Shown: positions 1,515-21,051 of the stretch, in pieces
How the letters are laid out: each line of letters starts with the position of its first letter
Position numbering within the stretch: position 1 is the first letter of the stretch
Source: Acidobacteriota bacterium
Lineage (GTDB): Bacteria; Acidobacteriota; Thermoanaerobaculia; Multivoradales; JAGPDF01
Direction of reading: 5' to 3'
Assembly: GCA_012521815.1 (NCBI GenBank)
Contig: JAAYLR010000141.1
Span: 414-64,413 of the forward strand
DNA: 64,000 nucleotides
Notes under the pieces: model-generated
What the model was told of the DNA's origin: nothing
Database searches by the model: none
The model's input: the letters and a program-made list of their open reading frames with translations, nothing else
Made by a program: the position numbers and the translations under genes

Positions 1515-2804
1515 TCAGGGCGTCGCCGCGTCCCAGCGATGCGGGCCGCCGGACTCCCAGCCATCACGGAAGAGCGGCACCGAGCCGTCGGCCGTCAGGC
1601 CCCAGAGCTCGAACCCCCGCTCCCCGTCGTTTGCCGCGAAGAGCAGCGTGCTCCCCACCTGCCGGAAGAGGCCCGGGCTCGACGACGCCGGACCCGGCGC
1701 GATGTCCGTCAGCCGCCACGTCCCCGCCGAGGTCCCGTCGGTCCGCCACGCCTCCCGCCCCCACGCCGGCGTCCACGCCGAGAAGACCAGCCGCCCGTCG
1801 AGCCAGGCGAGATCGCCCGGGCAGGAGGAGCCGGCTCCCGGCACGAGATCGGCGGCCGGCACGGTCCCCGCCGGGGTGCCGTCCGTCACCCAGAGCTCGC
1901 GGCCGAGCGCCGGATGCTCCGCCACGAAGAAGAGGCGCTCCCCCGCCGGGGTCAGCTCCCGCGGCGAGGAGGGCCGCGGCCCGGGCATCAGGTCGCCGAG
2001 GAGGTATGTCCCCGCCTCCGTCCCGTCGCTCACCCAGAGCTCCTCGCCGTGCACCCCGTCGTCGGCCGCGAAGAGCACGCGGTCCCCGAGCGCGGCGACC
2101 TTGCCCTCGAGCCGCGGCTCGAACGGAGCGGCGAGCGGGTCGCCGAGCTGGATCGCCGAGGCCGGACCCGGCGCAATATCGCGCACGCGCCGCGTTCCCG
2201 CCGGCGTCCCGTCCGTCCACCAGAGCTCGGTGCCGTACGCCTCCTCGCTCACCACCACCGCGAAACCGGTACCCGCCGGAACGATCCCCCGGATCCAGTC
2301 GACGCTGCCCGCCGCGAGCAGCTCCACGGGCGAGGCATCGGGGGCGAGGAAGTGGAGGCTCCTGCAGCCGTAGAGCGCCCCGAGCGGCGAGCTCGCGAGG
2401 TTCCAAGGGGTGCAGAGCACGGGGTCGATGGCGTCGGCCAGAAACGAGCCGTCCTCCGTGCCGTCGCTCTCCCAGAGCCCCTGTGGCGTGCCGAGGAGCC
2501 AGCCGGATCCGAACGGAACCGCCGGGGGCTCCCAGTACCCGGTACCCTGGATCCCCGGTACGAACGGTACCCCGGTTCCCTCCGGAAGGCCGTCGGTGCG
2601 CAGGAGGCCGGTCTCCATCGAATCGGGCTCCTGGGCGTGGACCACGGCGAACCCGCCGTTGGCGGCACAGGTCGCGCTGTTCCAAGCCACCTCCCGCAGC
2701 GCCTCGAGGCCACCGATCGCGCCGTCGCTCGACACGAGCCGGGCCGTCGCCTCCGCGGTCCAGATCCGCGCCTCGTAGAGGAGCCGGTTCCCGGTCACCT
2801 CCAT
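1515..2804 (-). CDS. ELWxxDGT-repeat protein, distal segment (probably the frameshifted continuation of the upstream gene)
   Basis: Repeats TELWWTDGTPAGT, EELWVSDGTEAGT, RELWVTDGTPAGT and REAWRTDGTSAGT. The first in-frame ATG (2804) overlaps the stop of the upstream gene in the +1 frame right after a G6/C6 homopolymer. Repeat periodicity is maintained across the junction. Confidence 0.55.
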   Translation of the reverse strand: MEVTGNRLLYEARIWTAEATARLVSSDGAIGGLEALREVAWNSATCAANGGFAVVHAQEPDSMETGLLRTDGLPEGTGVPFVPGIQGTGYWEPPAVPFGSGWLLGTPQGLWESDGTEDGSFLADAIDPVLCTPWNLASSPLGALYGCRSLHFLAPDASPVELLAAGSVDWIRGIVPAGTGFAVVVSEEAYGTELWWTDGTPAGTRRVRDIAPGPASAIQLGDPLAAPFEPRLEGKVAALGDRVLFAADDGVHGEELWVSDGTEAGTYLLGDLMPGPRPSSPRELTPAGERLFFVAEHPALGRELWVTDGTPAGTVPAADLVPGAGSSCPGDLAWLDGRLVFSAWTPAWGREAWRTDGTSAGTWRLTDIAPGPASSSPGLFRQVGSTLLFAANDGERGFELWGLTADGSVPLFRDGWESGGPHRWDAATP

Positions 2805-4387
2805 GCAGCGGGTGGGGGGTTGTGGAGAAAACGGGGAAAATCGCGGGGCGGCTGCAGGCTCGAGGATTGCCAGCCGAGCTGCCGTACGACGCTCGTGGTG
2901 TCGGCCGCCGGATCGGCCCGCCAGAGGCGCACCCCCGCCTCCGGATCCCAGGTCGGGAGCAGGAGCTGGCCGCCGAGCGCCACCGGTGGGAGTCGCGAGG
3001 CGAAGTCCGGCAGCCCCGGGTACTCCTCTCCCGGGGTGAGGTCGGAGATCCGCCGCGTCCCCGCGGGCGTGAGGTCGGTCGCCCAGAGCTCCAGCCCCGC
3101 GCCCGAGCCGTCGTCGGCGAGGAAGACGACCTCGCCACCGGCCACGGCCGAGAAGATCCCGCTCAGATACGCCAGATCGACCGCCGCCGAGCTCTCCGGG
3201 CCGGGGCGCAGATCGGCGAGCGGGGTAGCCACGAGCCCGTCGACGACCCACGGTTCGGCGCCGGTCGCCGGCTCCCAGACGGCGAGGAAGAGGCGCCCGC
3301 CGAGGCTCGATGCCCAGGCGCCGACGTACGGCCGGGCATCGTCCGGGAGCGGAACGAGCTCGGTGCCGCTCACGGTCCCGTCGGAGCGCACGAGCTCGGT
3401 CGCGCCCTCTGGCGTCTGCCCCACGAGATAGCCGGAGTCGCCAGCGATGACGATAACGCTGTTCAGGCCGCCGTAGCCCACCCGGCGGAGGAAGAAGGTG
3501 CCGGCCACCGTACCGTCGGAACGCCAGAGCTCGATGTCGTGGTTCGGCTGCGCCACGGTGTAAAGGAGCGTGCCGTCAGGCAGCGAGTTGAACCGCCGGT
3601 AGGCACCCGAGACGCTCTGCCAGCCGCCTTCGGGCGGCAGGCTGGAGAGCCGCTGCGTCCCCGCCGCCGTGCCGTCGCTCACCCAGAGCCCGGTGCGCTC
3701 CGCCGGCGCCCCGGCGATGGCGAAGAAGAGGTGCCCCGCTCCCGGCTCCAGCACGCCGATACCGGCGCTCTCCGGGCCAGGGGACAGATCGCGCACGAGC
3801 CAGGTTCCCGCCGCCGTGCCGTCGGAGCGCCAGAGCTCCGCACCGTGCACCCCATCGTCGGGTACGAAGAAGAGGAGACCCGAGGCCACGAGGAAGTTGC
3901 GCGGCGCGGACGAGTCGAGCCCCGGCCGGAGGTCGGCGACGAGGCGGGTCCCCCCCGCCGTGCCGTCGGTCGCCCAGAGCTCCACCCCGTGCACCCCGTC
4001 GTGGCCGGCGAAGAAGAGCGTCGAGCCGAGCACCGCGAGCGCCCCCGGGGCGCCGATGGCGGAGGTGCCACAGGCTCCCGGGCAGAGATCGCGCACCATC
4101 CAGGTGCCGAGCGCCGTGCCGTCGGAGCGCCAGAGCTCCTCGCCATGCACGCCGTCGTCGTGGAAGAAGTAGAGTGCGCCGCCCATCGCGACCGGCTGCG
4201 CCCGGAGGCCGATGAAACTCCACGGGTAGTCCACGCCCACGCCGAGGTCGTGGACGAGGTAGGGACCGTCCGCCGGGGCCGGCGCTGCTAGGACGGCGAG
4301 CTGGAACGCCACGGCAAGCAGCACGAGAGCCGCGTCGCGGCGGGCGCGGCGGCCAACGAACGGCATGGTCGGCTCGGGCCTGGCCAT
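2795..4387 (-). CDS. secreted ELWxxDGT-repeat protein (N-terminal signal peptide)
   Basis: Start ATG at 4387 has a GGAGGTGAG SD 7 nt upstream. N-terminus MARPEPTMPFVGRRARRDAALVLLAVAFQLAVLAAPAPA looks like a signal peptide, followed by about 9 repeats of the ~50-aa unit ...DDGVHGxELWRSDGTAAGT.LVRDL.PG.... The track's 1609-aa ORF (2795..7624) is an upstream shadow extension across ettA. Confidence 0.75.
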   Translation of the reverse strand: MARPEPTMPFVGRRARRDAALVLLAVAFQLAVLAAPAPADGPYLVHDLGVGVDYPWSFIGLRAQPVAMGGALYFFHDDGVHGEELWRSDGTALGTWMVRDLCPGACGTSAIGAPGALAVLGSTLFFAGHDGVHGVELWATDGTAGGTRLVADLRPGLDSSAPRNFLVASGLLFFVPDDGVHGAELWRSDGTAAGTWLVRDLSPGPESAGIGVLEPGAGHLFFAIAGAPAERTGLWVSDGTAAGTQRLSSLPPEGGWQSVSGAYRRFNSLPDGTLLYTVAQPNHDIELWRSDGTVAGTFFLRRVGYGGLNSVIVIAGDSGYLVGQTPEGATELVRSDGTVSGTELVPLPDDARPYVGAWASSLGGRLFLAVWEPATGAEPWVVDGLVATPLADLRPGPESSAAVDLAYLSGIFSAVAGGEVVFLADDGSGAGLELWATDLTPAGTRRISDLTPGEEYPGLPDFASRLPPVALGGQLLLPTWDPEAGVRLWRADPAADTTSVVRQLGWQSSSLQPPRDFPRFLHNPPPAAWR

Positions 4388-4564
4388 CGTCTCACCTCCG
4401 GGGATCGATGCGCGCCAAGATACCAGACAACGCCGCGCCGGGCTGTGAGGCGTTGCACTCCCCGGTCCGCCCCGGGCGGGGGGCGATAGACTCCGCGCTG
4501 CCGTCGCGGCGCCGCCCCGAGCGGGCGCCGCCCTCACTCTCCCGTTCGCCAGGGGGTTTCGCGC

Positions 4565-6223
4565 ATGCCGCAGTTCATCTACCACATGAAGAACCTGCGC
4601 AAGGTCACGCCGCAGGGCAAGGAGATCCTCAAGGGGATCTGGCTCTCGTTCTTCTACGGCGCCAAGATCGGCGTCATCGGCCACAACGGCGCCGGCAAGT
4701 CGACGCTCCTGCGGATCATGGCCGGGCTCGACCCCGACTTCGACGGCGAGGCGAAGCTGCTCGACGGCTACACCGTCGGCATGCTGCCGCAGGAGCCGGT
4801 GCTGCCGGCCGGGCGGACGGTGCAGGAGGTGGTCGAGGAGGCGGTGGCGGAGAAGAAGGCGATCCTCGCGCGCTACGACGAGCTCGCCGCGAACTACTCC
4901 GACGAGACCGCCGACGAGATGGGGCGCCTCCAGGACCAGATCGACGCCCAGAACCTCTGGGAGCTCGACCGCCACCTCGAGGTGGCGATGGACGCGCTCC
5001 GCCTCCCGCCGGCCGATCAGGAGGTCTCGACGCTCTCCGGCGGCGAGAAGCGGCGGGTCGCACTCTGCCGCCTGCTGCTGACCGCTCCCGACCTGCTGCT
5101 GCTCGACGAGCCGACGAACCACCTCGACGCCGAGTCGGTCGCCTGGCTCGAGCATCACCTGCAGGAGTACAAGGGGACGGTGGTCGCCATCACCCACGAC
5201 CGCTACTTCCTCGACAACGTCGCCGGCTGGATCCTCGAGCTCGACCGGGGCGCCGGGATCCCCTGGGAGGGGAACTACTCCTCCTGGCTCGACCAGAAGC
5301 AGCAGCTCCTCGCGAAGGAGGAGAAGGAGGCGACCGCCCGGCGGCGGACCCTCGAGCGCGAGCTGGAGTGGATCCGGATGGCACCGCGCGCCCGCCACGC
5401 CAAGGGGAAGGCGCGCCTGAACGCCTACGAACAGCTCCTCGCCGAGGACCAGGCGGCCGAGAAGCGCGGTCCCGCCAACGAGATCCTGATCCCGCCCGGG
5501 CCGCGCCTCGGCGAGAAGGTGATCGTCGCCGAGGGGCTCACCAAGGCGTACGGCGAAAAGCTCCTCTTCGCGGACCTCTCCTTCATCCTGCCGCGCTCGG
5601 CGATCGTCGGCGTCATCGGCCCGAACGGCGCCGGCAAGACGACGCTGATGCGGATCTTCGTCGGCCAGGAGAAGCCCGACGCCGGCACCCTGACGATCGG
5701 CGAGACGGTCGTGCTCTCCTACGTCGATCAGAGCCGCGAGACCCTCGACCCGGAGAAGACGGTCTTCCAGGAGATCTCCGACGGCGGCCGCGACCTCGTG
5801 CTCGTGGGCCGGCGCGAGGTGCCGTCGCGCGCCTACTGCTCCTGGTTCAACTTCCGCGGCGCGGATCAGCAGAAGAAGGTGCGCGATCTGTCGGGCGGCG
5901 AGCGCAACCGCCTCCACCTCGCCCGGCTGCTCAAGAGCGACGGCAACGTGATCCTCTTCGACGAGCCGACCAACGATCTCGACGTCGACACCCTGCGGGC
6001 GCTCGAAGAGGCCCTCCTCGCCTTTCCCGGCTGCGCCGTGGTGGTCTCCCACGACCGCTGGTTCCTCGACCGGATCGCCACCCACATCCTCGCCTTCGAA
6101 GGGGAGTCGCAGGTCGTCTGGTTCGAGGGCAACTATCAGGAGTACGAAGCCGACCGCCGCCGCCGTCTCGGCACGGAGGCCGATCAGCCGCACCGGATCC
6201 GGTACCGGAAGCTCGTGCGCTGA
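4565..6223 (+). CDS. ettA: energy-dependent translational throttle protein EttA (ABC-F ATPase)
   Basis: 552 aa; MPQFIYHMKNLRKVTPQGKEILKGIWLSFFYGAKIGVIGHNGAGKSTLLRIMAG; two ABC domains, with Walker A at GHNGAGKST and GPNGAGKTT. Confidence 0.95.
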   Translation: MPQFIYHMKNLRKVTPQGKEILKGIWLSFFYGAKIGVIGHNGAGKSTLLRIMAGLDPDFDGEAKLLDGYTVGMLPQEPVLPAGRTVQEVVEEAVAEKKAILARYDELAANYSDETADEMGRLQDQIDAQNLWELDRHLEVAMDALRLPPADQEVSTLSGGEKRRVALCRLLLTAPDLLLLDEPTNHLDAESVAWLEHHLQEYKGTVVAITHDRYFLDNVAGWILELDRGAGIPWEGNYSSWLDQKQQLLAKEEKEATARRRTLERELEWIRMAPRARHAKGKARLNAYEQLLAEDQAAEKRGPANEILIPPGPRLGEKVIVAEGLTKAYGEKLLFADLSFILPRSAIVGVIGPNGAGKTTLMRIFVGQEKPDAGTLTIGETVVLSYVDQSRETLDPEKTVFQEISDGGRDLVLVGRREVPSRAYCSWFNFRGADQQKKVRDLSGGERNRLHLARLLKSDGNVILFDEPTNDLDVDTLRALEEALLAFPGCAVVVSHDRWFLDRIATHILAFEGESQVVWFEGNYQEYEADRRRRLGTEADQPHRIRYRKLVR

Positions 6224-11919: not shown

Positions 11920-12336
11920 TCAGCCGCGCTTCCTCGTCACCGCCCGCTTCCGCGCGGGGGGCGCGGCCGCCGACGCGGCGGGGGCGTGCCGCTCCTCCTC
12001 CAGGCGGAAGAGGATCCGGCCGCAGCGCTCGCACGTCTCGAGATCGCTCTGGCGGCTCGCCATCGCCGTCGGACGCACCGTGAAGCAGCCGAGACAGGTG
12101 CCACCGAGCGAGGGGACGACCGCCCGCGGATGGCGCTGCCGTATCCGCTCGTAGAGGCGCAGGACCCTGGCGTCGATCCGCGCCGCCGCCTCGGCCCGGG
12201 CCTCGCTCAGGCGCGTCGACTCCCCGAGCGGGAAGCCGAGCGCCGCCTCGCGCTCGCGCATCGCGGCCTCGCCGAGGTCGGCGAGCAGGGCGTCGAGCTC
12301 CTGCAGGACGAGGAGTTCCTGGATCTGTGGGTTCAT
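11920..12336 (-). CDS. zinc-ribbon protein (coiled-coil + C4 zinc ribbon, COG1579-like)
   Basis: 138 aa; coiled-coil N-terminal part then CLGCFTV...(16)...CERCGRIL (CxxC...CxxC). The ATG overlaps the stop of the upstream EIIA gene (ATGA). The long track ORF 11920..13512 is an upstream shadow extension. Confidence 0.7.
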   Translation of the reverse strand: MNPQIQELLVLQELDALLADLGEAAMREREAALGFPLGESTRLSEARAEAAARIDARVLRLYERIRQRHPRAVVPSLGGTCLGCFTVRPTAMASRQSDLETCERCGRILFRLEEERHAPAASAAAPPARKRAVTRKRG

Positions 12337-12833
12337 CGCGCGAGCGCCTCCTGGATGCGGGGCCGGATCAGCTGCCGCGCGAGCTTCTCCAGATCGTCGA
12401 AGCTCTCGACGGCGAGCAGCCGTTCGCGGTCGGTGTCGTGGTGCACCGCCGCCACCAGCACCCCGAGCAGCGGCAGATACCCCTCGCCGCCCACGCCGTA
12501 CGGCGCCACGACGAGGAAGACGCGCTCGACCGGGTGACCATCGACGGCCTGGAAGTCGAGGCCGCGGGCGAGCCGGGCGACGACGAGCGTCGTCCGCTGC
12601 GCGACCATCGAGCGGGCGTGCGGGATCGCGATCCCATGTCCGAGGCCGGTGGTGCCGAGCGCCTCGCGCTCGACGAGCAGGCGCTGGAAAGCGTTGCGGT
12701 CGTGGATCGCTCCCGCCGCGCCGAGGGCGTCGGCGAGCGCGGCGAAGAGCTCCTCCTGGCTGGAGACTTCGAGCGCGGGCAGGAAGAGGCCCGCCTCGAT
12801 CCGGATGGATGTGGCGATGTCGATCGGCTTCAC
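12333..12833 (-). CDS. PTS EIIA type-2 protein (PtsN / EIIA-Ntr-like)
   Basis: 166 aa. Phospho-His region GLGHGIAIPHAR in an EIIA(Fru/Mtl/Ntr) fold pattern. GTG start with GGGAGG SD, 18 nt downstream of the hycFG-like stop. Confidence 0.8.
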   Translation of the reverse strand: MKPIDIATSIRIEAGLFLPALEVSSQEELFAALADALGAAGAIHDRNAFQRLLVEREALGTTGLGHGIAIPHARSMVAQRTTLVVARLARGLDFQAVDGHPVERVFLVVAPYGVGGEGYLPLLGVLVAAVHHDTDRERLLAVESFDDLEKLARQLIRPRIQEALAR

Positions 12834-12851: not shown

Positions 12852-13631
12852 CTAACGGCTCTCGCCCGCGGATTCCAGACGCCCGAGGAGCCGCAGCATC
12901 CCGTCGAGCATGGTGAGGGGATGCGGCGGACAGCCCGGCACCCAGAGATCGACCGGCACCACCGCGCCGGCGCCGCCGGCGACCTCGGGGTGCCCCAGAT
13001 ACGGTCCCCCGGCGATCGCGCAGGCGCCGATGGCGATCACGATCTTCGGCGGCGCCACCGCGTCGTACGTCTTGCGCAGCGCGAGGCGCATGTTCTCGCT
13101 CACCGGCCCGGTCACGATCAGGCCGTCGGCGTGGCGCGGCGAGGCGACGATCCGGATGCCGAAGCGGCCGATGTCCCAGGCCAGCGTGGAGAGGACGTTG
13201 ACGTCCGCCTCGCAGGCGTTGCAGCCGCCGGCGCTCACCTGCCGGAGCTTGAGCGAGCGGCCGAAGAGGCGGCGGAGCCGTTCGTCGAGCGCGGTGGCGA
13301 GCGCGAGCTCCCGCTCGGCGCTCACCTGCAGCTCCTCGCGCCGGCGCACCGCGAGCCGGTGATCGCCGCCCCAGGTGATCGCGCCCTCCGGGCAGGCGGC
13401 GGCGCACTCCGCGCAGAAGAGGCAGCGGCCGAGATCGATCGCGATCGCGGGCGAGAGCGAGATCGCCTCCGTGGGGCAGACCTCCACGCAGTCGCGGCAA
13501 CCGTCGCGGCACCGCTCGGGCGCGAGCAGCGGACGGCCGCGGAAGCGGTCCGGCAGCGGCGGCGGCGGCCCGTCGGGGTAGGCGAAGGTCCGGTGCCCCT
13601 GATGGAGTCGCGCGCGCAGCAGTCTGATCAT
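12852..13631 (-). CDS. fused 2x[4Fe-4S] ferredoxin (HycF/NuoI-like) + hydrogenase/complex-I small subunit (HycG/NuoB-like)
   Basis: N-terminus has CRDGCRDCVEVCP and CLFCAECAAACP (two CxxCxxCxxxCP motifs). C-terminal part has SAGGCNACE, IGACAIAGGPY and VPGCPPHP, matching HycG/NuoB cluster-binding motifs. Confidence 0.85.
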   Translation of the reverse strand: MIRLLRARLHQGHRTFAYPDGPPPPLPDRFRGRPLLAPERCRDGCRDCVEVCPTEAISLSPAIAIDLGRCLFCAECAAACPEGAITWGGDHRLAVRRREELQVSAERELALATALDERLRRLFGRSLKLRQVSAGGCNACEADVNVLSTLAWDIGRFGIRIVASPRHADGLIVTGPVSENMRLALRKTYDAVAPPKIVIAIGACAIAGGPYLGHPEVAGGAGAVVPVDLWVPGCPPHPLTMLDGMLRLLGRLESAGESR

Positions 13632-13653: not shown

Positions 13654-15168
13654 TCAGAGGTCGTGTCCGCAGTAGGACAGGTTGAAGCTCTTGTTGCAGA
13701 GCGGGAAATCGGAGATCTGCCCGCCGCGCAGCGCCCGGGCGAGCCCGCTCCAGTTGTGGAACGACGGGTCGACGATCTTGTAGCGCGCGAAGCGCCCCGC
13801 GCGATCGGTGAGGGCGACGTGGCAGATCTCGCCGCGCCACCCCTCGACGAGCGACACCGCGAGGCTCTCGGGCGCGAGCCGCCCCACTGGCACCCGCACC
13901 TCCCCCTCCGGAAGCGCCGCGAGCGTGGCGTGGAGGAAGGCGAGCGAGTGCTCCATCTCGAGCCAGCGGACCCGGGCGCGGGCGTGGACGTCGCCGGAAG
14001 CCGCCGTGGCCACCGCCATCGACTGGTCGCGGTACGCCCCGCCGGGGTGATCGCGACGCAGGTCCCGGTCGACCCCCGAGGCGCGCGCCGCCGGCCCCAC
14101 CAGGCCGAGCGCGAGGGCGTCCTCCCGCGGCACCACGCCGGTCGTCTCGAACCGCTCCATGACCGACGAGCTCTCCCAGAGCAGCTCGATGGCGGAGCGG
14201 GCGTCGGTGAAGGTGCGGTCGAGGCCGGCCCGCAGGCGCTCGCGCCGCGCCGGCTCGAGGTCGAAGCCGCTGCCCCCCGGGCGGACGAGGCCGCGTCCGA
14301 AGCGCGAGCCGCAGAGCTCGGCCGAGAGGTTCAGGAAATCGCCCCTGATCCGCCCGCAGAAGGAGGCGGTCGGCAGGTAGCCGACGTCGCCGGCGAGCGC
14401 GCCGAGGTCGCCGGTGTGGTTCGCCAGCCGCTCGAGCTCGAGCGCGATCGCGCGCAGCGCCGCTCCCCGCGGCGGTGCCGCGGTGCCGGCGAGCGCCTCG
14501 ATCAGCTCGCAGCCCGCCGTCGCGTGGCCGATCGTCGTGTCGCCGGCGGAGGTCTCCAGGTAATGGATCGTGCGCCGGTCGGGCCCCCCGATGAGCGCCC
14601 GCTCCACCCCCCGGTGCTGGTAGCCGAGCCGGATCTCGAGGTGGAAGACCTGCTCGCCGTGGCACTGGAACCGGAAATGCCCGGGCTCGATCACCCCGGC
14701 GTGCACCGGCCCGACCCCGACCTCGTGGACCTCCTGCCCCTCGACCCGGTAGAGCTCGCCGGTACCGGGCAGCGCGGGGGCCGGCGCGCCCGCCGCGGGT
14801 GCGACCAGCGGTGGCTGCGAACGCACCGGCGCCGGCGCCGGATGCCCCTCCGCGACGAGCCCGAACTGCTCGGCGAGCTCGCGTTCGAAGAGGTGGAGCT
14901 GCGGACACGCGGCGGCTCGGGAGGGGAACGCCGGGCCGGTGAGCGTCGCCCGGGCAAGCGCGATCCCGGCGCGCGCGTCGTCGGCGAGCACCGCCACGAG
15001 CTCGACCCCCGAGGGGCGCGGCACCCCGAACCAGGCGGCCACCCGCAGCCCGCCGTCGCACGCCGTGACGACGGCGTCGGCCAGCTCGGCCACCGGCAGC
15101 GCCGGAATCTCCCGCCGCGCCACCGCGACCCCCGCCGTGGTCCGCAGGAAGCGGTCGGCGCCGCTCAT
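13654..15168 (-). CDS. NuoC-NuoD-fusion / HycE-like large subunit, apparently lacking NiFe-binding cysteines
   Basis: 504 aa. NuoC-like N-terminal domain, then GPVHAGVIEPGHFRF...LGYQHRGVE (NuoD/large-subunit signature). Where L1 (RxCGxCxxxH) is expected it reads SAGDTTIGH. The C-terminus ends FPLCNKSFNLSYCGHDL rather than DPCxxCxxR. ATGA coupling to the upstream gene; GGAGGGGG SD. Confidence 0.85.
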   Translation of the reverse strand: MSGADRFLRTTAGVAVARREIPALPVAELADAVVTACDGGLRVAAWFGVPRPSGVELVAVLADDARAGIALARATLTGPAFPSRAAACPQLHLFERELAEQFGLVAEGHPAPAPVRSQPPLVAPAAGAPAPALPGTGELYRVEGQEVHEVGVGPVHAGVIEPGHFRFQCHGEQVFHLEIRLGYQHRGVERALIGGPDRRTIHYLETSAGDTTIGHATAGCELIEALAGTAAPPRGAALRAIALELERLANHTGDLGALAGDVGYLPTASFCGRIRGDFLNLSAELCGSRFGRGLVRPGGSGFDLEPARRERLRAGLDRTFTDARSAIELLWESSSVMERFETTGVVPREDALALGLVGPAARASGVDRDLRRDHPGGAYRDQSMAVATAASGDVHARARVRWLEMEHSLAFLHATLAALPEGEVRVPVGRLAPESLAVSLVEGWRGEICHVALTDRAGRFARYKIVDPSFHNWSGLARALRGGQISDFPLCNKSFNLSYCGHDL

Positions 15169-16598
15169 CGTCCCCCTCCGAGCGCCGCCGCAGCCTCGGT
15201 CAGCAGCCCGCGCAGCGACGCCGGCAGATGGAGGCCGAGCAGGAGCACGAGCGCGACGAGCAGGAGCGGCGGCAGGTAGCCGCGCGCCCGGTCGCGGTAC
15301 GCCGACTGCCGGGCGTAGGCCGTCGGCCGTCCCTGGAGAGCGGCGAAGGTGGTCGTCCCCATCCCGGCGAAGACGAGCAGCAGGAGGGCGACGAAGAGGG
15401 CGGCCAGCCAGCCGCGCCCGGCGGCCAGCGCCACCTGCACGATCAGCAGCTTGCTCACGAAGAGGCCGAACGGGGGCGAGCCGGTGATCGCGAAGAGGCC
15501 GAAGAGGAAGACCGTGCCCGAATACGGCAGGCGCCGCAGCGCACCGCGGATCTCGCCGGTCGTCTTGCCGCCGAACGCCCGGTGGAGGTTCCCGGCCGCG
15601 AGGAAGAGCCCGGCCTTGCCGAAGGCGTTGAGCACGAGGTGCAGGAGCGCGGCGAAGGTGGCGGCGGCGCCGAGGCCGGCGGCGAGCGCGAGGATCCCCA
15701 TCTGCTCGACGCTCGAGTAGGCGAGCATCCGCTTCAGATCCCGCTGCCCGAGCAGCAGCGCGCCGGCCACCGCCATCGAAAGGAGGCCGATGGCGATGAG
15801 CAGGCGGTTCGCGTAGATCCCCTCGCCCGCCGCCGCGGTGAGCTGGGTGAAGCGCAGCAGGGCGAGGAAGGCGCAGCTCGTCAACCCCCCGGCGAGCACC
15901 GCGCCCACCACGCCGGGCGCCTCGCCGTAGGCGTCCGGCTTCCAGGTATGCATCGGCGCGAGCCCCATCTTCGTGCCGTAGCCGACGAGCAGCAGCGCGA
16001 AGCCGGTGCGCAGCCAGGGACGCGAGAGCTCGCCGGCGCGGGCGAGCAGGTCGGGGAAGAGGAGCGACGCCTCGCCGCCGCCGAGCAGCGCCGCGTAGCC
16101 GACGAAGAACGACCCGAGCAGCGCCAGCGCGATCCCCACCGAGGAGATCAGCAGGTACTTCCAGGTGGCCTCGATCGATCGCGCCGAGCGGTTGAAGTAG
16201 ACGAGCGGCGCCGAGGCGAGCGTCGTCGCCTCGATCCCCACCCAGAGCAGGCCGAGATGCTGCGCGTACGCCACCAGGCTCATCGCGCCGAGGACGGCGA
16301 GCATGCAGGCGGTGAAGCGGCGATTCTCCCGCTCGGGGCGCTGCTCCAGATAGCCGACCGCGTAGACGGCGCAGACGAGGAAGAGCACGCTCACGAGCAG
16401 CAGCAGGAGCCGCCCGGGGGCGTCGAGCCGGAGCCAGTCGCCGCCGCTCCCCGCGGGGGCGCGCAGCGCGAGCCCGACGAGGAGGAGGTGGATGGCCGCG
16501 CCGAGCGCGAGCAGCCGCGGCCGCCAGAGCCGGGAGGGCGTCAGGTAGACGGCGACCGCCAGGGCCAACGGCACGACGACGGGCAGCGGCAGGAGCAC
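15165..16598 (-). CDS. NuoM/NuoN-like proton-pumping membrane subunit (HyfF-like)
   Basis: 477 aa, polytopic; conserved antiporter-like block LGLAPMHTWKPDAYGEAP and others; GTG start 2 nt after the upstream stop. Confidence 0.85.
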   Translation of the reverse strand: MLLPLPVVVPLALAVAVYLTPSRLWRPRLLALGAAIHLLLVGLALRAPAGSGGDWLRLDAPGRLLLLLVSVLFLVCAVYAVGYLEQRPERENRRFTACMLAVLGAMSLVAYAQHLGLLWVGIEATTLASAPLVYFNRSARSIEATWKYLLISSVGIALALLGSFFVGYAALLGGGEASLLFPDLLARAGELSRPWLRTGFALLLVGYGTKMGLAPMHTWKPDAYGEAPGVVGAVLAGGLTSCAFLALLRFTQLTAAAGEGIYANRLLIAIGLLSMAVAGALLLGQRDLKRMLAYSSVEQMGILALAAGLGAAATFAALLHLVLNAFGKAGLFLAAGNLHRAFGGKTTGEIRGALRRLPYSGTVFLFGLFAITGSPPFGLFVSKLLIVQVALAAGRGWLAALFVALLLLVFAGMGTTTFAALQGRPTAYARQSAYRDRARGYLPPLLLVALVLLLGLHLPASLRGLLTEAAAALGGGR

Positions 16599-16600
16599 GG

Positions 16601-17242
16601 CTACTCCCGCAGCTGCGAGAGCCGCCGCGTGTCGAGCGAGGCGAACTCCCGGTTGATGTGGTGGATGATGATGCTGAGCACGAAGATGCCGACGAAGAGG
16701 TCGAGGAGCACCCCGGCCTCGACGAGGAACGGCATCGCCTCGACGAGCAGCAGGCCGAAGGCGAAGATCCCGTTCTCCAGCACGAGGTAGCCGACCACCT
16801 GGGTGATCGCCTTGCGCCGGGTGACGAGCAGGAGGAGCCCGGCGGCGACGGTGGCGAGCGCGGCCGGCACGAGCAGCGGCGCGAGCCGCTCCTCGGCGAA
16901 CGGGAGCCGCCCCGCCGCCGCCACCGCGAGCGCGGTGGTGAGGGCGCCGAGGACGAGCGACGGGAGCAGGCCGAGCAGCGGCTCGACCTCGCGCCGGATC
17001 GCCACCTGCCGGAGCGCCCGGAAGAGCATCGCCGGGATCAGCCAGGCCTTGAGCACCACGCTCGCGAGGGCGAGTACCAGCACCCGGTTGCTCGCCTCCC
17101 CGTGGGCGACGATCGCGATCACCCCGAGCAGCAGCCCCTGGAGGGCGACCGCCCGCACCATCGAGCCGATCCGGCCGGCGCCAAGCGCCACGAGGTTCAC
17201 GAGCAGGAGGCCGGCGACGAGGATCTCGAGCAGCGATTGCAT
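16601..17242 (-). CDS. HyfE-like small membrane subunit (NuoK-related)
   Basis: 213 aa hydrophobic protein with HyfE-like length and topology; 4-nt gap to the upstream gene. Confidence 0.75.
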   Translation of the reverse strand: MQSLLEILVAGLLLVNLVALGAGRIGSMVRAVALQGLLLGVIAIVAHGEASNRVLVLALASVVLKAWLIPAMLFRALRQVAIRREVEPLLGLLPSLVLGALTTALAVAAAGRLPFAEERLAPLLVPAALATVAAGLLLLVTRRKAITQVVGYLVLENGIFAFGLLLVEAMPFLVEAGVLLDLFVGIFVLSIIIHHINREFASLDTRRLSQLRE

Positions 17243-17246
17243 CCGG

Positions 17247-18194
17247 TCACCTTCCGAGCAGCAGCAGCGCGAAGCCGCAGCTGAGCACCGCGGCGACGAG
17301 CAGCGCCGGCACCCGCAGCAGCCGCAGCCGCGCCATGGTCGACTCCACGACGCCGATCAGCACCGCGACGGCGAGCACGCCGAGGACGAAGAAGCCGAGG
17401 CCGAGCCACCCCCGGACGGTGGCCGCCGGCACGAGGATGTGCATCAGGAGCACGTCGAGCACCAGCAGCTTGACCGCCGCGCCGTACTCCACGAGGCCGA
17501 AGAGCGGGCCGCTGTGGTCGAGGACCATGACCTCGTGGATCATCGTCAGCTCGAGGTGGGTCGCCGGGTCGTCGACCGGGATCCGGGCGCACTCGGCGAG
17601 CAGGACGATCAGCACCCCGGCGGCGACGAGCGCGAGCGCCACGGTGCTGTCGCGCCAGAGCTCCCCTTCCGGCGCCCGCAGCATGTCCTCGAGCTGCAGC
17701 GAGCCGGAGAGGCGCGCGAGAGCGAAGAAGGCGAAGAAGAGCGCCGGCTCGGTGAGCCAGGCGAAGCCGACCTCCCGGGCCGCCCCCATCCCCTCGAACG
17801 GCGAGCCGGTGTCGAGCGCCGCCGCGGCGGTGAAGAAGCGGCCGAGCGCGAGCAGGTAGGCGAAGAGCACGAAGTCGCCGGCGAAGGAGATCGGCGCGTC
17901 GAACGGCCCGAGCGGCACCACCAGCCCCGCCATCACCGCGGTGACGACCGCGAGTACCGGCGCGAGGGCGAAGACGCCGGTCGTCGTCGCGCTCAGCGCG
18001 AGCTCCTTGCGCGCGAGCTTGGCGAGATCGCGGTACGGCTGGACGAGGCTCGGGCCGCGCCGCCCCGCGAAGCGCGACTTCGTCCGCTGGATCACCCCGA
18101 GCAGGAGCGGCGGCAGCAGGAGGAGGACCCCGAGGTGGACCAGGATCTGGCTCAGCGCCACGGCGGACCTCCGGCGGCGTGGCTCACGAGCCAC
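17247..18194 (-). CDS. NuoH-like membrane subunit (HycD/HyfC-like)
   Basis: Aligns by eye to E. coli HycD (…RVARARLHNRRGPGVLQEYRDIIKLLGRQ vs …QRTKSRFAGRRGPSLVQPYRDLAKLARKE; ...LDTGSPF...). The true start is probably a few codons inside (near VALSQIL); the first ~11 Arg-rich residues are doubtful. Confidence 0.8.
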   Translation of the reverse strand: MAREPRRRRSAVALSQILVHLGVLLLLPPLLLGVIQRTKSRFAGRRGPSLVQPYRDLAKLARKELALSATTTGVFALAPVLAVVTAVMAGLVVPLGPFDAPISFAGDFVLFAYLLALGRFFTAAAALDTGSPFEGMGAAREVGFAWLTEPALFFAFFALARLSGSLQLEDMLRAPEGELWRDSTVALALVAAGVLIVLLAECARIPVDDPATHLELTMIHEVMVLDHSGPLFGLVEYGAAVKLLVLDVLLMHILVPAATVRGWLGLGFFVLGVLAVAVLIGVVESTMARLRLLRVPALLVAAVLSCGFALLLLGR

Positions 18195-20223
18195 CGAGCC
18201 TTTCCACGGGCCACCACGGCTGCAGGCTCACGAGCAGCAGGATCACGAGCGCGATCACGACGTAGAGGAGGTACTGCTGGAGGCTCCCCTGGTGGTAGCG
18301 GCGCAGCCGCTCGCTCAGCCGCACGAGCCACCGCACCCCGGGGCGCAGGAGCCGCTCGAGCACGCTGTCGGCGATCTCGGAGTGGAAGCTGCTCGCCTCC
18401 GGGAACGGCCCCTCGATCCGCGGCCAGCGGAAGCGGGGGGCGAGCACCCAGCCGAAGCGCGAGGTGATCAGCTCGGCGAACGACGAGGCCGTGTACTGCA
18501 GCCGCGGCGAGGCGCCGGCGAAACCGCAGTCCCAGGTCGGCAGCTCCGGCTGGCGTTCCCGGGCCCGGCGGCAGAGCGGGGCGAGCCGCAGCGAGATCAG
18601 GGCGGTGAGGAGGATCAGGAGGGCGGCGACGACCGCGAGCCGGCCGAGCGGCAGGAACCGCCCCCAGCCGAGGAGCGCCCCCGTGTCCTCCGCCCAGGCG
18701 GCGATCCCGCGATCGACCGCCGGCGCGAAGAGGCCGGGGGCGATACCGATCGCCACGCAGGCCGCGGCGAGGAGCGCCATCGGCCGGAGCATCGGCGCCG
18801 GTGCCTCCTTCGCCGCCGCGGCGGCCTCCGAGCGCGGGGTGCCGAGGAAGACGATGCCGTAGACCTTCACGAAGCAGGCGACCGCGAGCGCTCCGGTGGC
18901 CGCCAGCGCCGCCGCCGGCAGCGCGGCCCAGGCCGGGCCGGGGCCGAGCGCCGCCCGGGCGAGCCCGAGGAAGATCGCCAGCTCGCTCACGAAGCCGTTG
19001 AGCGGCGGCAGCGCACAGATCGCCACCGCGCCGACGAGGAAGAGCCCGGCGGTGGCCGGCATCCGCTTCGCGAGCCCCCCCTGGAGGTCGATCTCCCGGC
19101 TGCCGGTGGCGTGGAGGACCGAGCCCGCGCCGAAGAAGAGGAGCGACTTGAAGAGCGCGTGGTTCCAGACGTGGAGCAGGCAGCCGGCCATTCCGAGCAC
19201 CACCCAGTCGGCGCGGCCGGTGGCGCGCCCGGCCATCGCGAGCCCGAGGCCGAGGAGGATGATCCCGATGTTCTCGATGCTGTGGTAGGCGAGCAGCTTC
19301 TTCAGATCGTGCTGCGCGAGGGCGAAGACGACACCGAAGAACGCCGAGAGCCCGCCGGCGGCGAGCAGGACGACGCCCCAGGAGAGCGGCGGCGCCGCCA
19401 CCAGCCCGAGGGTCCGCACGAGCCCGTAGATCCCCATCTTGAGGACGACCCCCGACATCAGCGCCGAGACGTGGCTCGGGGCGCTCGCGTGGGCGTCGGG
19501 GAGCCACGAGTGGAGGGGCATCACCCCCGCCTTGATCCCGAAGCCGACGAGCGCGAGCGCGAAGAGCGCGGTGAGCGCCTTCGGCGCGGCGGTGGCCGGG
19601 ATCGCACCGAACGCGAAGCCGCCGCCGAGCTGCGCCTGGAGGGCGAAGAGCGCGACGAGGCAGAGCAGCGCCGCGTGGCTGTACAGCAGATAGGTCCAGC
19701 CGGCGGCGCGCACCTCGGCCCGCGCCTCCTCGGTGACCACGAGGAAGTAGGTCGCGAGCGCCATCGTCTCCCACGCGATCAGGAACGAGAAGCCGTCGCG
19801 GGCGGCGAGCAGCAGCAGGAGGCTCGCGAGCGCGAGGCCGTAGCTGAACTGGAGCCGCCGGCCGTGACGCGGGTGGCGGCGGGGATCCCAGTAGGTGCGG
19901 CCGTAGACCGCCCCGAGGCCGCCGACGAACAGGACCGGCAGCGCGAAGAAGCCGCTGAGGGCGTCGCCCCCGAGCTGCCCTTCGCCGAGGAAGAGCCCCG
20001 GCAGCCGCAGCGCGGCGGGTGCGGAGGCGGCGAGCAGCGCCACCGCGCCGGCGATCCCCACCGCGCAGCCGGCGAGCGTGAGCCGCACCGTCCAGCGCGA
20101 GCCCGACAGCGAGCGCCGCGGCAGGAGCAGCGCCGGCACCCCGCTGAGCGTGAGCACGAAGGCGGCGCCGAGCAGGAGCAGGAGCCCCGCGCGGGCGGCG
20201 AGGGGGCCTTCGAAGCCGCTCAT
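18184..20223 (-). CDS. NuoL-like antiporter-type membrane subunit (HyfB/HycC-like)
   Basis: 679 aa from MSGFEGPLAARAGLLLLL; conserved blocks WLPDAHASAPSHVSALMSGVVLKMGIYG and HALFKSLLF. ATG at 20223 overlaps the stop of the 31-aa HTH ORF (ATGA). The track ORF starts 69 codons earlier in non-coding-looking sequence. Confidence 0.85.
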   Translation of the reverse strand: MSGFEGPLAARAGLLLLLGAAFVLTLSGVPALLLPRRSLSGSRWTVRLTLAGCAVGIAGAVALLAASAPAALRLPGLFLGEGQLGGDALSGFFALPVLFVGGLGAVYGRTYWDPRRHPRHGRRLQFSYGLALASLLLLLAARDGFSFLIAWETMALATYFLVVTEEARAEVRAAGWTYLLYSHAALLCLVALFALQAQLGGGFAFGAIPATAAPKALTALFALALVGFGIKAGVMPLHSWLPDAHASAPSHVSALMSGVVLKMGIYGLVRTLGLVAAPPLSWGVVLLAAGGLSAFFGVVFALAQHDLKKLLAYHSIENIGIILLGLGLAMAGRATGRADWVVLGMAGCLLHVWNHALFKSLLFFGAGSVLHATGSREIDLQGGLAKRMPATAGLFLVGAVAICALPPLNGFVSELAIFLGLARAALGPGPAWAALPAAALAATGALAVACFVKVYGIVFLGTPRSEAAAAAKEAPAPMLRPMALLAAACVAIGIAPGLFAPAVDRGIAAWAEDTGALLGWGRFLPLGRLAVVAALLILLTALISLRLAPLCRRARERQPELPTWDCGFAGASPRLQYTASSFAELITSRFGWVLAPRFRWPRIEGPFPEASSFHSEIADSVLERLLRPGVRWLVRLSERLRRYHQGSLQQYLLYVVIALVILLLVSLQPWWPVERLGGS

Positions 20224-20315
20224 GCCTCGCTCACCACGCGCTGCTCGATCCAGCGATAGATCGTCTTCTCGGAGACGTCCAGCAGGCGGGCGGCATCCCT
20301 GACGAGGAGCTTCAT
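20220..20315 (-). CDS. 31-aa mini helix-turn-helix ORF (excisionase/MerR-type HTH_17-like), translationally coupled to the complex operon
   Basis: MKLLVRDAARLLDVSEKTIYRWIEQRVVSEA: a canonical 'LL.vs..T.YRwi..' HTH with the usual C-terminal wing missing. Its stop overlaps the next ATG (ATGA). Absent from the track because it is under 60 aa. No strong SD. Confidence 0.35.
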   Translation of the reverse strand: MKLLVRDAARLLDVSEKTIYRWIEQRVVSEA

Positions 20316-20607: not shown

Positions 20608-21051
20608 CTACCGGAGCGGGGAGACGAAGACGGTGAGCCCCTCGACCCGTTCGACGCGCACCCGGGCGCCGGCCGGAAGGGGGCGGGAGGTGGTGAGGCG
20701 GGCGTTCCACGACTCGCCGGCGAGCTCGACCCGGCCGAGCCGGCCGGGGGCGAGCGCTTCGAGCGTCACCCCTTCGCTCCCCACCAGCGGGTCGACCTTC
20801 CTCCGGGCGACGGCCGCCGCGGCCGCCCGGCCCTTTCCGCGGTGCCTCGTGAGCACCAGCGCCAACCCCACCGCGAAGAGGAGGGCGAAGAGCGCCCCCG
20901 GCGCCCACCCCGGCAGGCCGGGCACCGCGAAACGGACGAGGCCGGTGAGCAGCGCCGCGCCGCCGCCGAGCAGCAGGAGCACCCGCCAGCGCCGGTGGAA
21001 AGCGCCGAGGAGCAGGAGGAGTCCGAGGATCAGCCAGTACCAGTGAGACAT
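20608..21051 (-). CDS. NfeD-like membrane protein (short form, C-terminal OB-fold)
   Basis: 147 aa. Two N-terminal TM helices, then a beta-rich C-terminus (GRLGRVELAGESWNARL...VRVERVEGLTVFVSP) typical of NfeD. No SPFH/stomatin partner in the window. Confidence 0.65.
   Translation of the reverse strand: MSHWYWLILGLLLLLGAFHRRWRVLLLLGGGAALLTGLVRFAVPGLPGWAPGALFALLFAVGLALVLTRHRGKGRAAAAAVARRKVDPLVGSEGVTLEALAPGRLGRVELAGESWNARLTTSRPLPAGARVRVERVEGLTVFVSPLR

What the first reader, a model, noticed from the sequence alone, without database searches (positions are those of the whole stretch)
13654..15168. Large subunit appears to lack both NiFe-ligating cysteine motifs
Aligned by eye to EchE/HycE/NuoD, the position of L1 (RxCGxCxxxH, about 20 residues after the HRGxEK motif) reads SAGDTTIGH with no Cys. 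The C-terminus is FPLCNKSFNLSYCGHDL rather than DPCxxCxxR; the two Cys are 9 residues apart, not the CxxC pair. The small subunit keeps all four [4Fe-4S] ligands (CNAC, GAC, GCPP). This is the complex-I-like / Ehr pattern (quinone or other substrate site instead of NiFe), yet the protein is HycE-like in architecture (NuoC-NuoD fusion).
Basis: seen in the sequence. Interest (0 to 1): 0.6.

Follow-up and report, generated by a model that had tools for sequence, protein, structure and literature searches.

The report
Nickel-free hydrogenase-like Ehr complex subunit
This gene encodes the large subunit of an "Ehr" complex, a membrane enzyme that descends from hydrogen-producing hydrogenases but has lost all four cysteines that hold the nickel-iron centre; the family was already described, is widespread, and still has no known function.

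Summary
ORF 13654-15168 (- strand, 504 aa) is a NuoC-NuoD fusion. E. coli HycE is its closest solved relative. HycE's RVC241GIC244GFAH aligns with TSAGDTTIGH, and DPC531YSC534TDR aligns with NLSYCGHDL. The four ligand positions are Ala, Thr, Ser and Gly. The small subunit keeps all four proximal [4Fe-4S] cysteines.

The loss is not a local decay. None of 79 aligned relatives from many phyla, nor 240 metagenomic homologues, has Cys at these positions. The replacement motifs (xGD[TS][TS] and NKSFNLSYxGxDL) are almost invariant. The six-gene order ehrA-B-C-D-L-S is conserved, and Fe-S ligands and ion-channel residues are intact.

The protein is 62% identical to the large subunit of the Geobacter pickeringii cluster, which matches the published Geobacter Ehr layout. 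It is 34.5% identical to a rhizobial HyqG. Loss of both CxxC motifs is already published for Ehr and Hyq (Coppi 2005, Marreiros 2013, Sprecher 2012).

Verdict: a new member of a known kind. The electron acceptor is still unknown.

Side observation: related operons start with an HTH + PTS-EIIA regulator gene. Here only a 31-codon remnant of it remains.

The parts
13654..15168 (-). ehrL: large subunit, NuoC-NuoD fusion, 504 aa, with no NiFe-ligating cysteines
   Evidence: Pfam Complex1_49kDa 2.1e-38 plus a weak Complex1_30kDa hit. Best PDB sequence match is HycE 7z0s_E at 1.2e-36. Foldseek best match is 7z0s_E, TM 0.75.
14524..14553 (-). L1-equivalent segment, residues 206-215 (TSAGDTTIGH). A208 and T211 replace the two Cys. 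G209 and D210 are invariant.
   Evidence: Alignments.
13657..13707 (-). C-terminal signature, residues 488-504 (FPLCNKSFNLSYCGHDL). S498 and G501 replace the two L2 Cys. The protein ends at the position of the HycE maturation cleavage site.
14668..14712 (-). Hydrogenase-type beta1-beta2 loop, residues 153-167 (GPVHAGVIEPGHFRF). It retains the conserved Glu161 and His164.
   Evidence: E161, P162, G163 and H164 are at least 95% conserved and identical to HycE/HyfG.
12852..13631 (-). ehrS: small subunit, 259 aa. The N-terminal domain is a HycF/HyfH/NuoI-like 2x[4Fe-4S] domain and the C-terminal domain is NuoB/HycG-like with four proximal-cluster Cys.
   Evidence: Pfam Oxidored_q6 and Fer4_7. NCBIfam NF009053 matches residues 1-111. 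Ligand conservation.
15165..16598 (-). ehrD: HyfF/NuoN-like antiporter-type subunit, 477 aa
   Evidence: Retains E123, K210, H320, K328 and K383 at the canonical channel positions.
16601..17242 (-). ehrC: HyfE-like membrane subunit, 213 aa
   Evidence: NCBIfam NF008556, hydrogenase 4 membrane subunit, 3.3e-21.
17247..18161 (-). ehrB: HycD/HyfC/NuoH-like membrane subunit, 304 aa
   Evidence: Pfam NADHdh 1.1e-34. Public gene call. Conserved charged residues are shared with HycD/HyfC.
18184..20223 (-). ehrA: HyfB/NuoL-like antiporter-type subunit, 679 aa
   Evidence: NCBIfam hydrogenase 4 subunit B 3.7e-169. Public gene call. Retains E152, K231, K262, H351, K359 and E414.
20220..20315 (-). 31-codon remnant of the HTH + PTS_EIIA_2 regulator gene that leads the operon in related loci
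   Evidence: MKLLVRDAARLLDVSEKTIYRWI matches the N-terminus of the 231-aa regulator in L002/L084.
12333..12833 (-). Stand-alone PTS_EIIA_2 protein (166 aa) immediately downstream of ehrS. It keeps the GIAIPH histidine motif.
   Evidence: Pfam PTS_EIIA_2 1.2e-22. Alignment with the regulator family.

Best explanation
The gene encodes EhrL, the large subunit of an Ehr (energy-converting-hydrogenase-related) complex. Ehr is a six-subunit, Hyf-like membrane complex: EhrA (HyfB-like), EhrB (HyfC-like), EhrC (HyfE-like), EhrD (HyfF-like), EhrL (HyfG-like) and EhrS (a HyfH::HyfI fusion).

Shown here:
- All four [NiFe] ligands are lost across the whole family.
- The replacement residues are under strong purifying selection.
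- All twelve Fe-S cysteines of EhrS are kept.
- The canonical Glu/Lys/His residues of both antiporter-like subunits are kept.

The complex is therefore a functional machine, but not a [NiFe]-hydrogenase.

Inferred mechanism: a low-potential soluble donor, most likely ferredoxin, delivers electrons to the 2x[4Fe-4S] domain of EhrS. They pass to the proximal [4Fe-4S] cluster. They then reach an acceptor bound in the remodelled pocket at the EhrL/EhrS/EhrB interface. That pocket has small residues at the four former ligand positions, lined by the invariant D210, N492, K493 and Y499 plus the retained E161, H215 and R445. The reaction is coupled, possibly reversibly, to ion translocation through EhrB/C and EhrA/D.

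The acceptor is not known. Membrane menaquinone is my leading guess, at about one in three.
For: - Homology and fold.
- Ligand loss and conserved replacement motifs. The same signature appears in more distant subfamilies: Variovorax at 43% identity, rhizobial HyqG at 34.5%, and a Rhodococcus protein.
- Conserved ehrA-B-C-D-L-S synteny in about 70 of 80 loci from many phyla. At least 592 species genomes carry a relative.
- Fe-S ligands. Channel residues.
- 62% identity to the Geobacter pickeringii protein, which lies in a seven-gene cluster matching the GSU0739-45 description (PMC7894505).
- No hyp or hycI maturation genes in the 64-kb window.
- All Ehr subunits were detected, and varied with electron donor, in the G. 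sulfurreducens proteome (PMC7894505).
- The literature defines Ehr by the missing CxxC motifs (PMC6349859, PMC10284858, PMC7304191, PMC13194489).
Against: - Nothing here shows electron flow, the donor or the acceptor.
- The quinone ligands of complex I are absent: the Tyr87 position is Gly209 and the beta1-beta2 loop is hydrogenase-type.
- Ehr-type complexes are reported in lineages without quinone biosynthesis (PMC6349859).
- The AlphaFold model is unreliable exactly in the pocket-forming segments, with pLDDT below 50 for residues 125-182 and 477-504, so pocket geometry could not be examined.
- The G. sulfurreducens EhrL sequence itself was not retrieved. The link runs through other Geobacter species.
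- No redox partner gene is conserved next to the operon.
Confidence: 0.85

Rival explanations
1. It is an unorthodox hydrogenase. The complex still makes or consumes H2 at a site without the canonical NiFe ligands, as claimed for the related Hyq 'endo-hydrogenase' of Azorhizobium caulinodans.
For: - hyq deletion mutants change H2 recycling and evolution and diazotrophic growth (PMC2650096, PMC3357923).
- Rhizobial HyqG shares the same signature motifs and the 504-aa fused architecture.
- The hydrogenase-type Glu161, His215 and Arg445 are retained.
Against: - The Hyq evidence is genetic and physiological only, with no purified enzyme. The authors themselves call a NiFe site 'uncertain, if not unlikely' (PMC3357923).
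- All four ligand positions are non-Cys in every member examined.
- The substitute cysteines C491 and C500 are missing in the Rhodococcus variant (T and A).
- There is no C-terminal extension for maturation, and no hyp or hycI gene in the window.
- The hyq phenotypes could be indirect, for example through reductant supply to nitrogenase. This last point is my inference.
Confidence: 0.06
2. It is a complex-I-type quinone reductase in the strict sense. EhrL would work as NuoD and bind quinone in the same way.
For: - D261 aligns with Nqo4 D139 and with the NuoCD Asp, where HycE has Phe.
- NCBIfam NuoD models are the best family hits.
- Sprecher et al. infer a quinone cavity for Hyq (PMC3357923).
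Against: - The NuoD equivalog scores are far below their cut-offs (170 versus 360 bits).
- The Tyr87 position is Gly209. The His38 loop is replaced by the hydrogenase-type VIEPGH.
- EhrB shares HycD-specific rather than NuoH-specific charged residues.
- The operon lacks NuoA and an N-module.
- Ehr is reported in quinone-less lineages (PMC6349859).
Confidence: 0.3
3. It is a decaying, non-functional relic of a hydrogenase. A 2026 Geobacter paper states this (PMC13194489).
For: The catalytic ligands are lost. Missense mutations accumulated in ehr genes during long-term electrode culture (PMC13194489).
Against: - 123 EhrL positions are at least 95% conserved across phyla, including the replaced motifs.
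- Six-gene synteny, Fe-S ligands and channel residues are intact.
- GC3 is 0.94-0.96, typical of expressed genes in this genome.
- The proteins were detected and varied with growth condition in Geobacter (PMC7894505).
Confidence: 0.02
4. It is a redox-gated ion transporter. The Fe-S clusters would sense the ferredoxin pool and switch an Mrp-like antiporter on or off, with no net substrate reduction in the old NiFe pocket.
For: - No acceptor-specific residues could be recognised.
- The pocket lining is charged and polar (D210, K493, N492, E161, D261), like a proton relay.
- No partner oxidoreductase gene is conserved nearby.
Against: There is no precedent among characterised complex-I-like enzymes. 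Keeping a full three-cluster electron wire suggests electron throughput. This reading is pure inference.
Confidence: 0.08

Closest known systems
Ehr (Ech/energy-converting hydrogenase-related) complex of Geobacter (GSU0739-45; Coppi 2005; Marreiros et al. 2013)
   Same: - Subunit set and order ehrA-B-C-D-L-S.
- The large subunit lacks both CxxC motifs.
- 62% identity to the G. pickeringii large subunit.
- Identical L1-equivalent (AGDTTIGH) and C-terminal (FPLCNKSFNLSYCG[HF]DL) motifs.
   Different: - Geobacter has a second, divergently transcribed EhrA copy.
- Residue 502 is Phe in the Geobacter group and His here.
- The window lacks the full HTH-EIIA leader gene found in many relatives.
Hyq 'endo-hydrogenase' (hyqRBCEFGI) of Azorhizobium and rhizobia (PMC2650096, PMC3357923)
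   Same: - Six structural genes in the same order, preceded by a regulator gene.
- HyqG is a 504-aa NuoC::D fusion lacking both CxxC motifs.
- Shared GD motif and a ...FPLCNKSFNxSYxGHDL end.
   Different: - Only 34.5% identity.
- HyqI is a short protein (177 aa) with only the NuoB-like domain, lacking the 2x[4Fe-4S] domain of EhrS.
- The regulator is a short HTH protein without an EIIA domain.
- The C-terminal Cys is at 497 instead of 500, and His215 is Tyr.
E. coli hydrogenase 4 / hydrogenase 3 (HyfG, HycE; FHL structure 7Z0S)
   Same: - Closest solved structure and sequence.
- Same NuoC-NuoD fusion, the same EPGH loop, and the same set of membrane subunits (HyfB, C, E, F).
- The EhrS N-terminal domain resembles HyfH/HycF.
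   Different: - About 26% identity.
- HycE and HyfG have C241/C244/C531/C534 and a cleaved C-terminal extension.
- They work with FdhF, HycB/HyfA and hyp/hycI maturation genes, none of which is present here.
Respiratory complex I subunit NuoD/Nqo4
   Same: No NiFe site. The protein ends at the same C-terminal position. An Asp equivalent to Nqo4 D139 is present (D261).
   Different: About 21% identity to NuoCD. The Tyr87 and His38 quinone ligands are absent. NuoD equivalog scores are below cut-off. There is no N-module and no NuoA/J.
Actinobacterial 'EHR' (M. tuberculosis Rv0082-Rv0087 type; represented here by a Rhodococcus plasmid locus)
   Same: Same signature (ISGDTTIGH ... FPLTNKSFNLSYAGNDL) and the same membrane subunits. 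The M. tuberculosis cluster is called EHR, with function undetermined (PMC6728331).
   Different: The small subunit gene comes first and lacks the ferredoxin domain. C491 and C500 are Thr and Ala. About 43% identity over residues 160-504.

Membership tests
Ehr complex (energy-converting hydrogenase-related) | Large subunit homologous to group 4 [NiFe]-hydrogenase large subunits and NuoD | tested here: met
   Pfam PF00346 2.1e-38. HycE 1.2e-36, MbhL 1.1e-34, Nqo4 6.7e-32. Foldseek TM 0.75 to 7z0s_E.
Ehr complex (energy-converting hydrogenase-related) | [quoted passage not shown] | tested here: met
   A208, T211, S498 and G501 align with HycE C241, C244, C531 and C534. This holds family-wide.
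Ehr complex (energy-converting hydrogenase-related) | Gene cluster ehrA (NuoL-like), ehrB (NuoH-like), ehrC (HyfE-like), ehrD (NuoM/N-like), ehrL, ehrS | tested here: met
   for the window. Conserved order in related loci.
Ehr complex (energy-converting hydrogenase-related) | Orthology with the Geobacter cluster in which Ehr was defined | tested here: met
   62% identity to G. pickeringii P0215, which lies in a seven-gene cluster with two EhrA copies, as in the GSU0739-45 naming (PMC7894505). The G. sulfurreducens protein itself was not retrieved.
Ehr complex (energy-converting hydrogenase-related) | Small subunit retains the proximal [4Fe-4S] ligands | tested here: met
   C137, C140, C204 and C234 align with the HycG/HyfI ligands; C140, C204 and C234 also align with NuoB cysteines, while NuoB has Leu at the C137 column.
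Ehr complex (energy-converting hydrogenase-related) | No hydrogenase activity | not testable with these tools
   Needs biochemistry.
Group 4 [NiFe]-hydrogenase (true hydrogenase) | L1 motif RxCGxCxxxH with two Cys | tested here: not met
   TSAGDTTIGH.
Group 4 [NiFe]-hydrogenase (true hydrogenase) | L2 motif DPCxxCxxR/H with two Cys | tested here: not met
   NLSYCGHDL. The single Cys is at the middle position.
Group 4 [NiFe]-hydrogenase (true hydrogenase) | C-terminal extension removed by a maturation protease, with hyp/hycI genes | tested here: not met
   The protein ends at the HycE R537-equivalent position. No hyp or hycI gene among the window ORFs scanned. The rest of the genome was not seen.
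Complex I NuoD/Nqo4 | Quinone-ligating Tyr (Nqo4 Y87) and His (H38) on the beta1-beta2 loop | tested here: not met
   The Y87 position is G209. The loop reads VIEPGH, as in HycE.
Complex I NuoD/Nqo4 | Score above the NCBIfam NuoD equivalog cut-off | tested here: not met
   170.4 bits versus a cut-off of 360 (NF004739). 145 versus 459 (TIGR01962).
Complex I NuoD/Nqo4 | Asp equivalent to Nqo4 D139 | tested here: met
   D261 is at least 95% conserved in the family. It aligns with the NuoCD Asp, where HycE has Phe.
Hyq endo-hydrogenase (hyqRBCEFGI) | Six structural genes B-C-E-F-G-I, with HyqG a ~504-aa NuoC::D fusion lacking CxxC | tested here: met
   PMC3357923.
Hyq endo-hydrogenase (hyqRBCEFGI) | Short HyqI with only the NuoB-like domain (Cys55/58/112/152), and close sequence relationship | tested here: not met
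   EhrS is 259 aa with an extra 2x[4Fe-4S] domain. Identity is only 34.5% to R. johnstonii HyqG, against 49-66% to the relatives from the genome scan and 62% to the G. pickeringii protein. This is a sister subfamily.
MBS/Mbx sulfane-sulfur reductase | Close similarity to MbsL and a 13-subunit Mrp-containing operon | tested here: not met
   6u8y_L scores 2.3e-17, weaker than HycE, MbhL and Nqo4. The operon has six genes and no Mrp module.

The most novel reading that the evidence does not exclude
The former NiFe pocket may have been rebuilt into a different, conserved active site. All four ex-ligand positions carry small residues. An Asp (D210), Asn-Lys (N492-K493) and Tyr (Y499) constellation is invariant across Ehr, Hyq and the actinobacterial EHR representative. 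The site could carry out chemistry that is neither NiFe hydrogen catalysis nor complex-I-type quinone reduction. This could include the NiFe-independent H2 turnover claimed for Hyq, or reduction of an unrecognised small molecule. In addition, the operon-leading HTH + PTS-EIIA regulator may place the complex under PTS(Ntr)-type metabolic control.
Probability: 0.12. Interest if true: 0.8.

Novelty: new member of a known kind. Interest (0 to 1): 0.27.

Why it matters
Ehr/Hyq complexes are regarded as evolutionary intermediates between membrane-bound hydrogenases and respiratory complex I. They occur in at least several hundred bacterial species, yet their substrate is unknown. They are routinely mis-annotated as 'hydrogenase' or 'NADH-quinone oxidoreductase subunit C'.

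For this window the practical consequence is that the locus must not be counted as H2 metabolism.

The conservation analysis here argues against the published view that Ehr is non-functional. It also names a short list of invariant pocket residues for mutagenesis: D210, N492, K493, Y499, E161, H215 and R445. It does not solve the function.

Tried and rejected
- **Literature search:** the first search on 'Ehr' was swamped by electronic health records and Ehrlichia. Narrower terms worked.
- **Structure prediction:** an AlphaFold2 monomer from a 25-sequence alignment had pLDDT below 50 for residues 125-182 and 477-504, the segments that form the pocket. No coordinates are returned either. Only the overall fold match was used.
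- **C491/C500 as a new site:** I considered these, with C169, C271, C286 and C449, as a new metal or dithiol site. I rejected this as a universal feature. C500 is absent in 9% of close relatives. Hyq has the Cys shifted to 497. The Rhodococcus variant has Thr and Ala and lacks C271.
- **Partner enzyme:** I looked for a conserved partner oxidoreductase (formate dehydrogenase, CO dehydrogenase, NuoEF) by clustering all flanking ORFs of 80 loci. Nothing besides the six structural genes and the HTH-EIIA regulator recurs in more than about 8 loci.
- **Maturation genes:** I looked for hyp and maturation genes in the window and found none.
- **G. sulfurreducens EhrL:** I tried to reach it by name through a second homology search. 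It was not among the 120 listed hits, so G. pickeringii and G. grbiciae were used instead.
- **Regulator adjacency count:** a first count was wrong because ORF starts over-extend. I redid it allowing overlaps.
Full report
**Locus.** The window is about 74% G+C. On the minus strand lies a compact operon of genes with GC3 of 0.94-0.96. Its genes are:
- a HyfB/NuoL-like subunit (18184-20223)
- a HycD/NuoH-like subunit (17247-18161)
- a HyfE-like subunit (16601-17242)
- a HyfF/NuoN-like subunit (15165-16598)
- the ORF in question (13654-15168, 504 aa)
- a 259-aa Fe-S protein (12852-13631)

Public gene calls on 21 metagenomic contigs give the same proteins. The target ORF has a Shine-Dalgarno sequence, and its ATG overlaps the upstream stop codon as ATGA.

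**Checking the observation.** phmmer against all PDB chains puts E. coli HycE first (7z0s_E, 1.2e-36). P. furiosus MbhL and T. thermophilus Nqo4 follow. I fetched E. coli HycE, HyfG and NuoCD from NC_000913 and aligned them with the query and relatives.
- HycE RVC241GIC244GFAH aligns with TSAGDTTIGH (residues 206-215).
- HycE DPC531YSC534TDR aligns with NLSYCGHDL (residues 496-504).
- The four ligand positions are therefore A208, T211, S498 and G501.
- The protein stops exactly at the position of HycE R537, the maturation cleavage site. It has no C-terminal extension.

The small subunit's C137, C140, C204 and C234 align with the proximal-cluster ligands of HycG and HyfI; the last three also align with NuoB cysteines. 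Its first ~110 residues form a HycF/HyfH/NuoI-like 2x[4Fe-4S] domain with eight conserved cysteines.

**Is it more than chance or decay?** A homology search returned thousands of hits. The best 120 are 62-98% identical, mostly from Acidobacteriota (Thermoanaerobaculia) MAGs. A scan of one genome per GTDB species found at least 592 genomes encoding a relative. The 80 best are 49-66% identical. They come from Acidobacteriota, Planctomycetota, Verrucomicrobiota, Geobacterales, Spirochaetota, Myxococcota, Gemmatimonadota, Chlamydiota and others.

In a 79-sequence alignment none of the four positions is ever Cys: A/S/G, T/S/A/V, S 79/79 and G 79/79. In total, 123 positions are at least 95% conserved. 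They include family-specific G209-D210, F488, P489, N492, K493, F495, L497, S498, Y499, G501, D503 and L504. The 240 metagenomic homologues show the same motifs. The change is ancient, family-wide and under purifying selection.

**The rest of the machine is intact.** The order ehrA-B-C-D-L-S is conserved in about 70 of the 80 loci. EhrA and EhrD keep the TM5 Glu, TM7 Lys, central His/Lys and TM12 Glu/Lys of complex-I antiporter-like subunits. EhrB keeps a set of charged residues shared with HycD and HyfC. EhrL keeps the hydrogenase-type beta1-beta2 loop (VIEPGHFRF, with E161 and H164), H215 and the RG of the PRG motif (R445). It also carries D261, which aligns with Nqo4 D139 and the NuoCD Asp where HycE has Phe. 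The position of the quinone-ligating Tyr87 is Gly209. The site is thus neither a NiFe site nor a canonical complex-I quinone site.

**What it is.** The literature describes exactly this. Ehr complexes are related to group 4 hydrogenases but lack the Ni/Fe-coordinating residues, and their function is unknown (PMC6349859, PMC10284858, PMC7304191, PMC6728331). [quoted passage not shown]

A second homology search, seeded with a Geobacter-MAG protein, returned proteins of G. grbiciae, G. pickeringii and Geobacter sp.. The G. pickeringii gene lies in a seven-gene cluster with two EhrA copies, matching the GSU0739-45 subunit names (PMC7894505). Its protein is 62% identical to the query and has the same motifs.

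The alphaproteobacterial Hyq system (hyqRBCEFGI) is a sister subfamily. HyqG is 504 aa and a NuoC::D fusion. [quoted passage not shown] The R. johnstonii pRL11 orthologue is 34.5% identical to the query and reads TSGDSTVAY and FPLCNKSFNCSYSGHDL. A Rhodococcus plasmid locus has the gene order of M. tuberculosis Rv0082-87. It carries ISGDTTIGH and FPLTNKSFNLSYAGNDL.

The universal signature is therefore GD at the L1 position and NKSF[ND]xSYxGxDL at the C-terminus. The cysteines C271, C491 and C500 are subfamily-specific, so they cannot be universal metal ligands.

**Structure.** AlphaFold2 gave a mean pLDDT of 71.6 and pTM of 0.77, but below 50 in residues 125-182 and 477-504. Foldseek places HycE first (TM 0.75, 26% identity), followed by fused NuoCD proteins. 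No Ehr or Hyq structure exists in the PDB copy.

**How it probably works.** Shown: a complete three-cluster Fe-S chain, a conserved remodelled pocket and intact ion-translocation residues. Also shown: no NiFe ligands, and no maturation genes in the window.

Inferred: a ferredoxin-type donor feeds the EhrS 2x[4Fe-4S] domain. Electrons reach the proximal cluster and then an acceptor in the pocket at the EhrL/EhrS/EhrB junction. This is coupled to ion movement and is possibly reversible.

The acceptor is unknown. Menaquinone is the leading guess, but it is weakened by the missing Tyr/His ligands and by reports of Ehr in quinone-less lineages (PMC6349859). Clustering of all flanking ORFs found no conserved partner oxidoreductase.

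The Hyq papers claim hydrogenase activity from mutant phenotypes (PMC2650096, PMC3357923). I regard this as unproven. Because hyq is NifA-dependent, the phenotype may be indirect, but I cannot exclude the claim.

**Side finding.** The only other conserved gene is an HTH_17 + PTS_EIIA_2 protein of about 235 aa. It lies directly upstream of ehrA, often with a 4-nt overlap, in 35 of the 42 loci that carry it. In the window only its first ~24 codons survive as a 31-codon ORF (20220-20315), still overlapping the ehrA start. A separate 166-aa EIIA protein follows ehrS (12333-12833).

**Verdict.** This is an acidobacterial-type member of a known, functionally unsolved family.

Noticed in passing
window 20220-20315 (- strand): A 31-codon ORF (MKLLVRDAARLLDVSEKTIYRWIEQRVVSEA) overlaps the ehrA start by 4 nt. 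Its first ~24 residues match the N-terminal HTH of the ~235-aa HTH_17 + PTS_EIIA_2 regulator that leads the operon in 42 related loci. The regulator gene appears to have collapsed to a remnant in this organism.
   Followed up: partly
window 12333-12833 and 11920-12336 (- strand): A stand-alone PTS_EIIA_2 protein (166 aa, GIAIPH histidine motif kept) follows ehrS directly. It shows about 34-43% identity to the EIIA domain of the upstream regulators elsewhere. After it comes a 138-aa ORF with two CxxC pairs (zinc-ribbon-like) and no Pfam hit. The EIIA function may have been relocated to the 3' end of the operon.
   Followed up: partly
window 12852-13631 (- strand): The small subunit is a fusion of a HycF/HyfH/NuoI-like 2x[4Fe-4S] domain with the NuoB/HycG-like domain. 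The first cluster motif is CxxxCxxCxxxCP. The fusion is conserved in the Ehr subfamily (median ORF length 258 aa, an upper bound because ORF starts were taken at the first start codon). It is absent from rhizobial HyqI (177 aa) and from the Rhodococcus small subunit.
   Followed up: yes
EhrL residue 502 (window 13663-13665); proteins P0001-P0240: Residue 502 is dimorphic. It is His in the acidobacterial-type sequences (...CGHDL) and Phe in the Geobacter-type sequences (...CGFDL), roughly half each. It is therefore unlikely to be a catalytic ligand.
   Followed up: partly
L084 (MAG contig_2573), 2144-4938: In the closest long contig of another species, a PTS enzyme I gene (PEP-utilisers) lies divergently next to the HTH-EIIA regulator. 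This hints at phosphotransfer control of the operon. In the same long-read assembly the ehrA and ehrS gene calls are fragmented, probably by frameshift errors.
   Followed up: no
L090 (Variovorax sp. PBL-E5 plasmid 3): Two Hyf-like clusters lie about 3 kb apart on one plasmid. One is Ehr-type with a fused 4Fe-4S small subunit (43% identity to the query). The second begins with hyfB.
   Followed up: no
names attached to homologues: Family members are annotated inconsistently as 'Ni,Fe-hydrogenase III large subunit', 'hydrogenase', 'NADH-quinone oxidoreductase subunit C', 'carbon monoxide-induced hydrogenase' and even 'hydrogenase expression protein HypE'. No hit in the Pfam or NCBIfam scans is specific to this family, and the best NCBIfam hits (NuoD equivalogs) fall below their cut-offs.
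   Followed up: partly
window 20608-21051 (- strand): An NfeD-like membrane protein gene sits just upstream of the operon on the same strand. It is not conserved next to ehr in other loci.
   Followed up: partly
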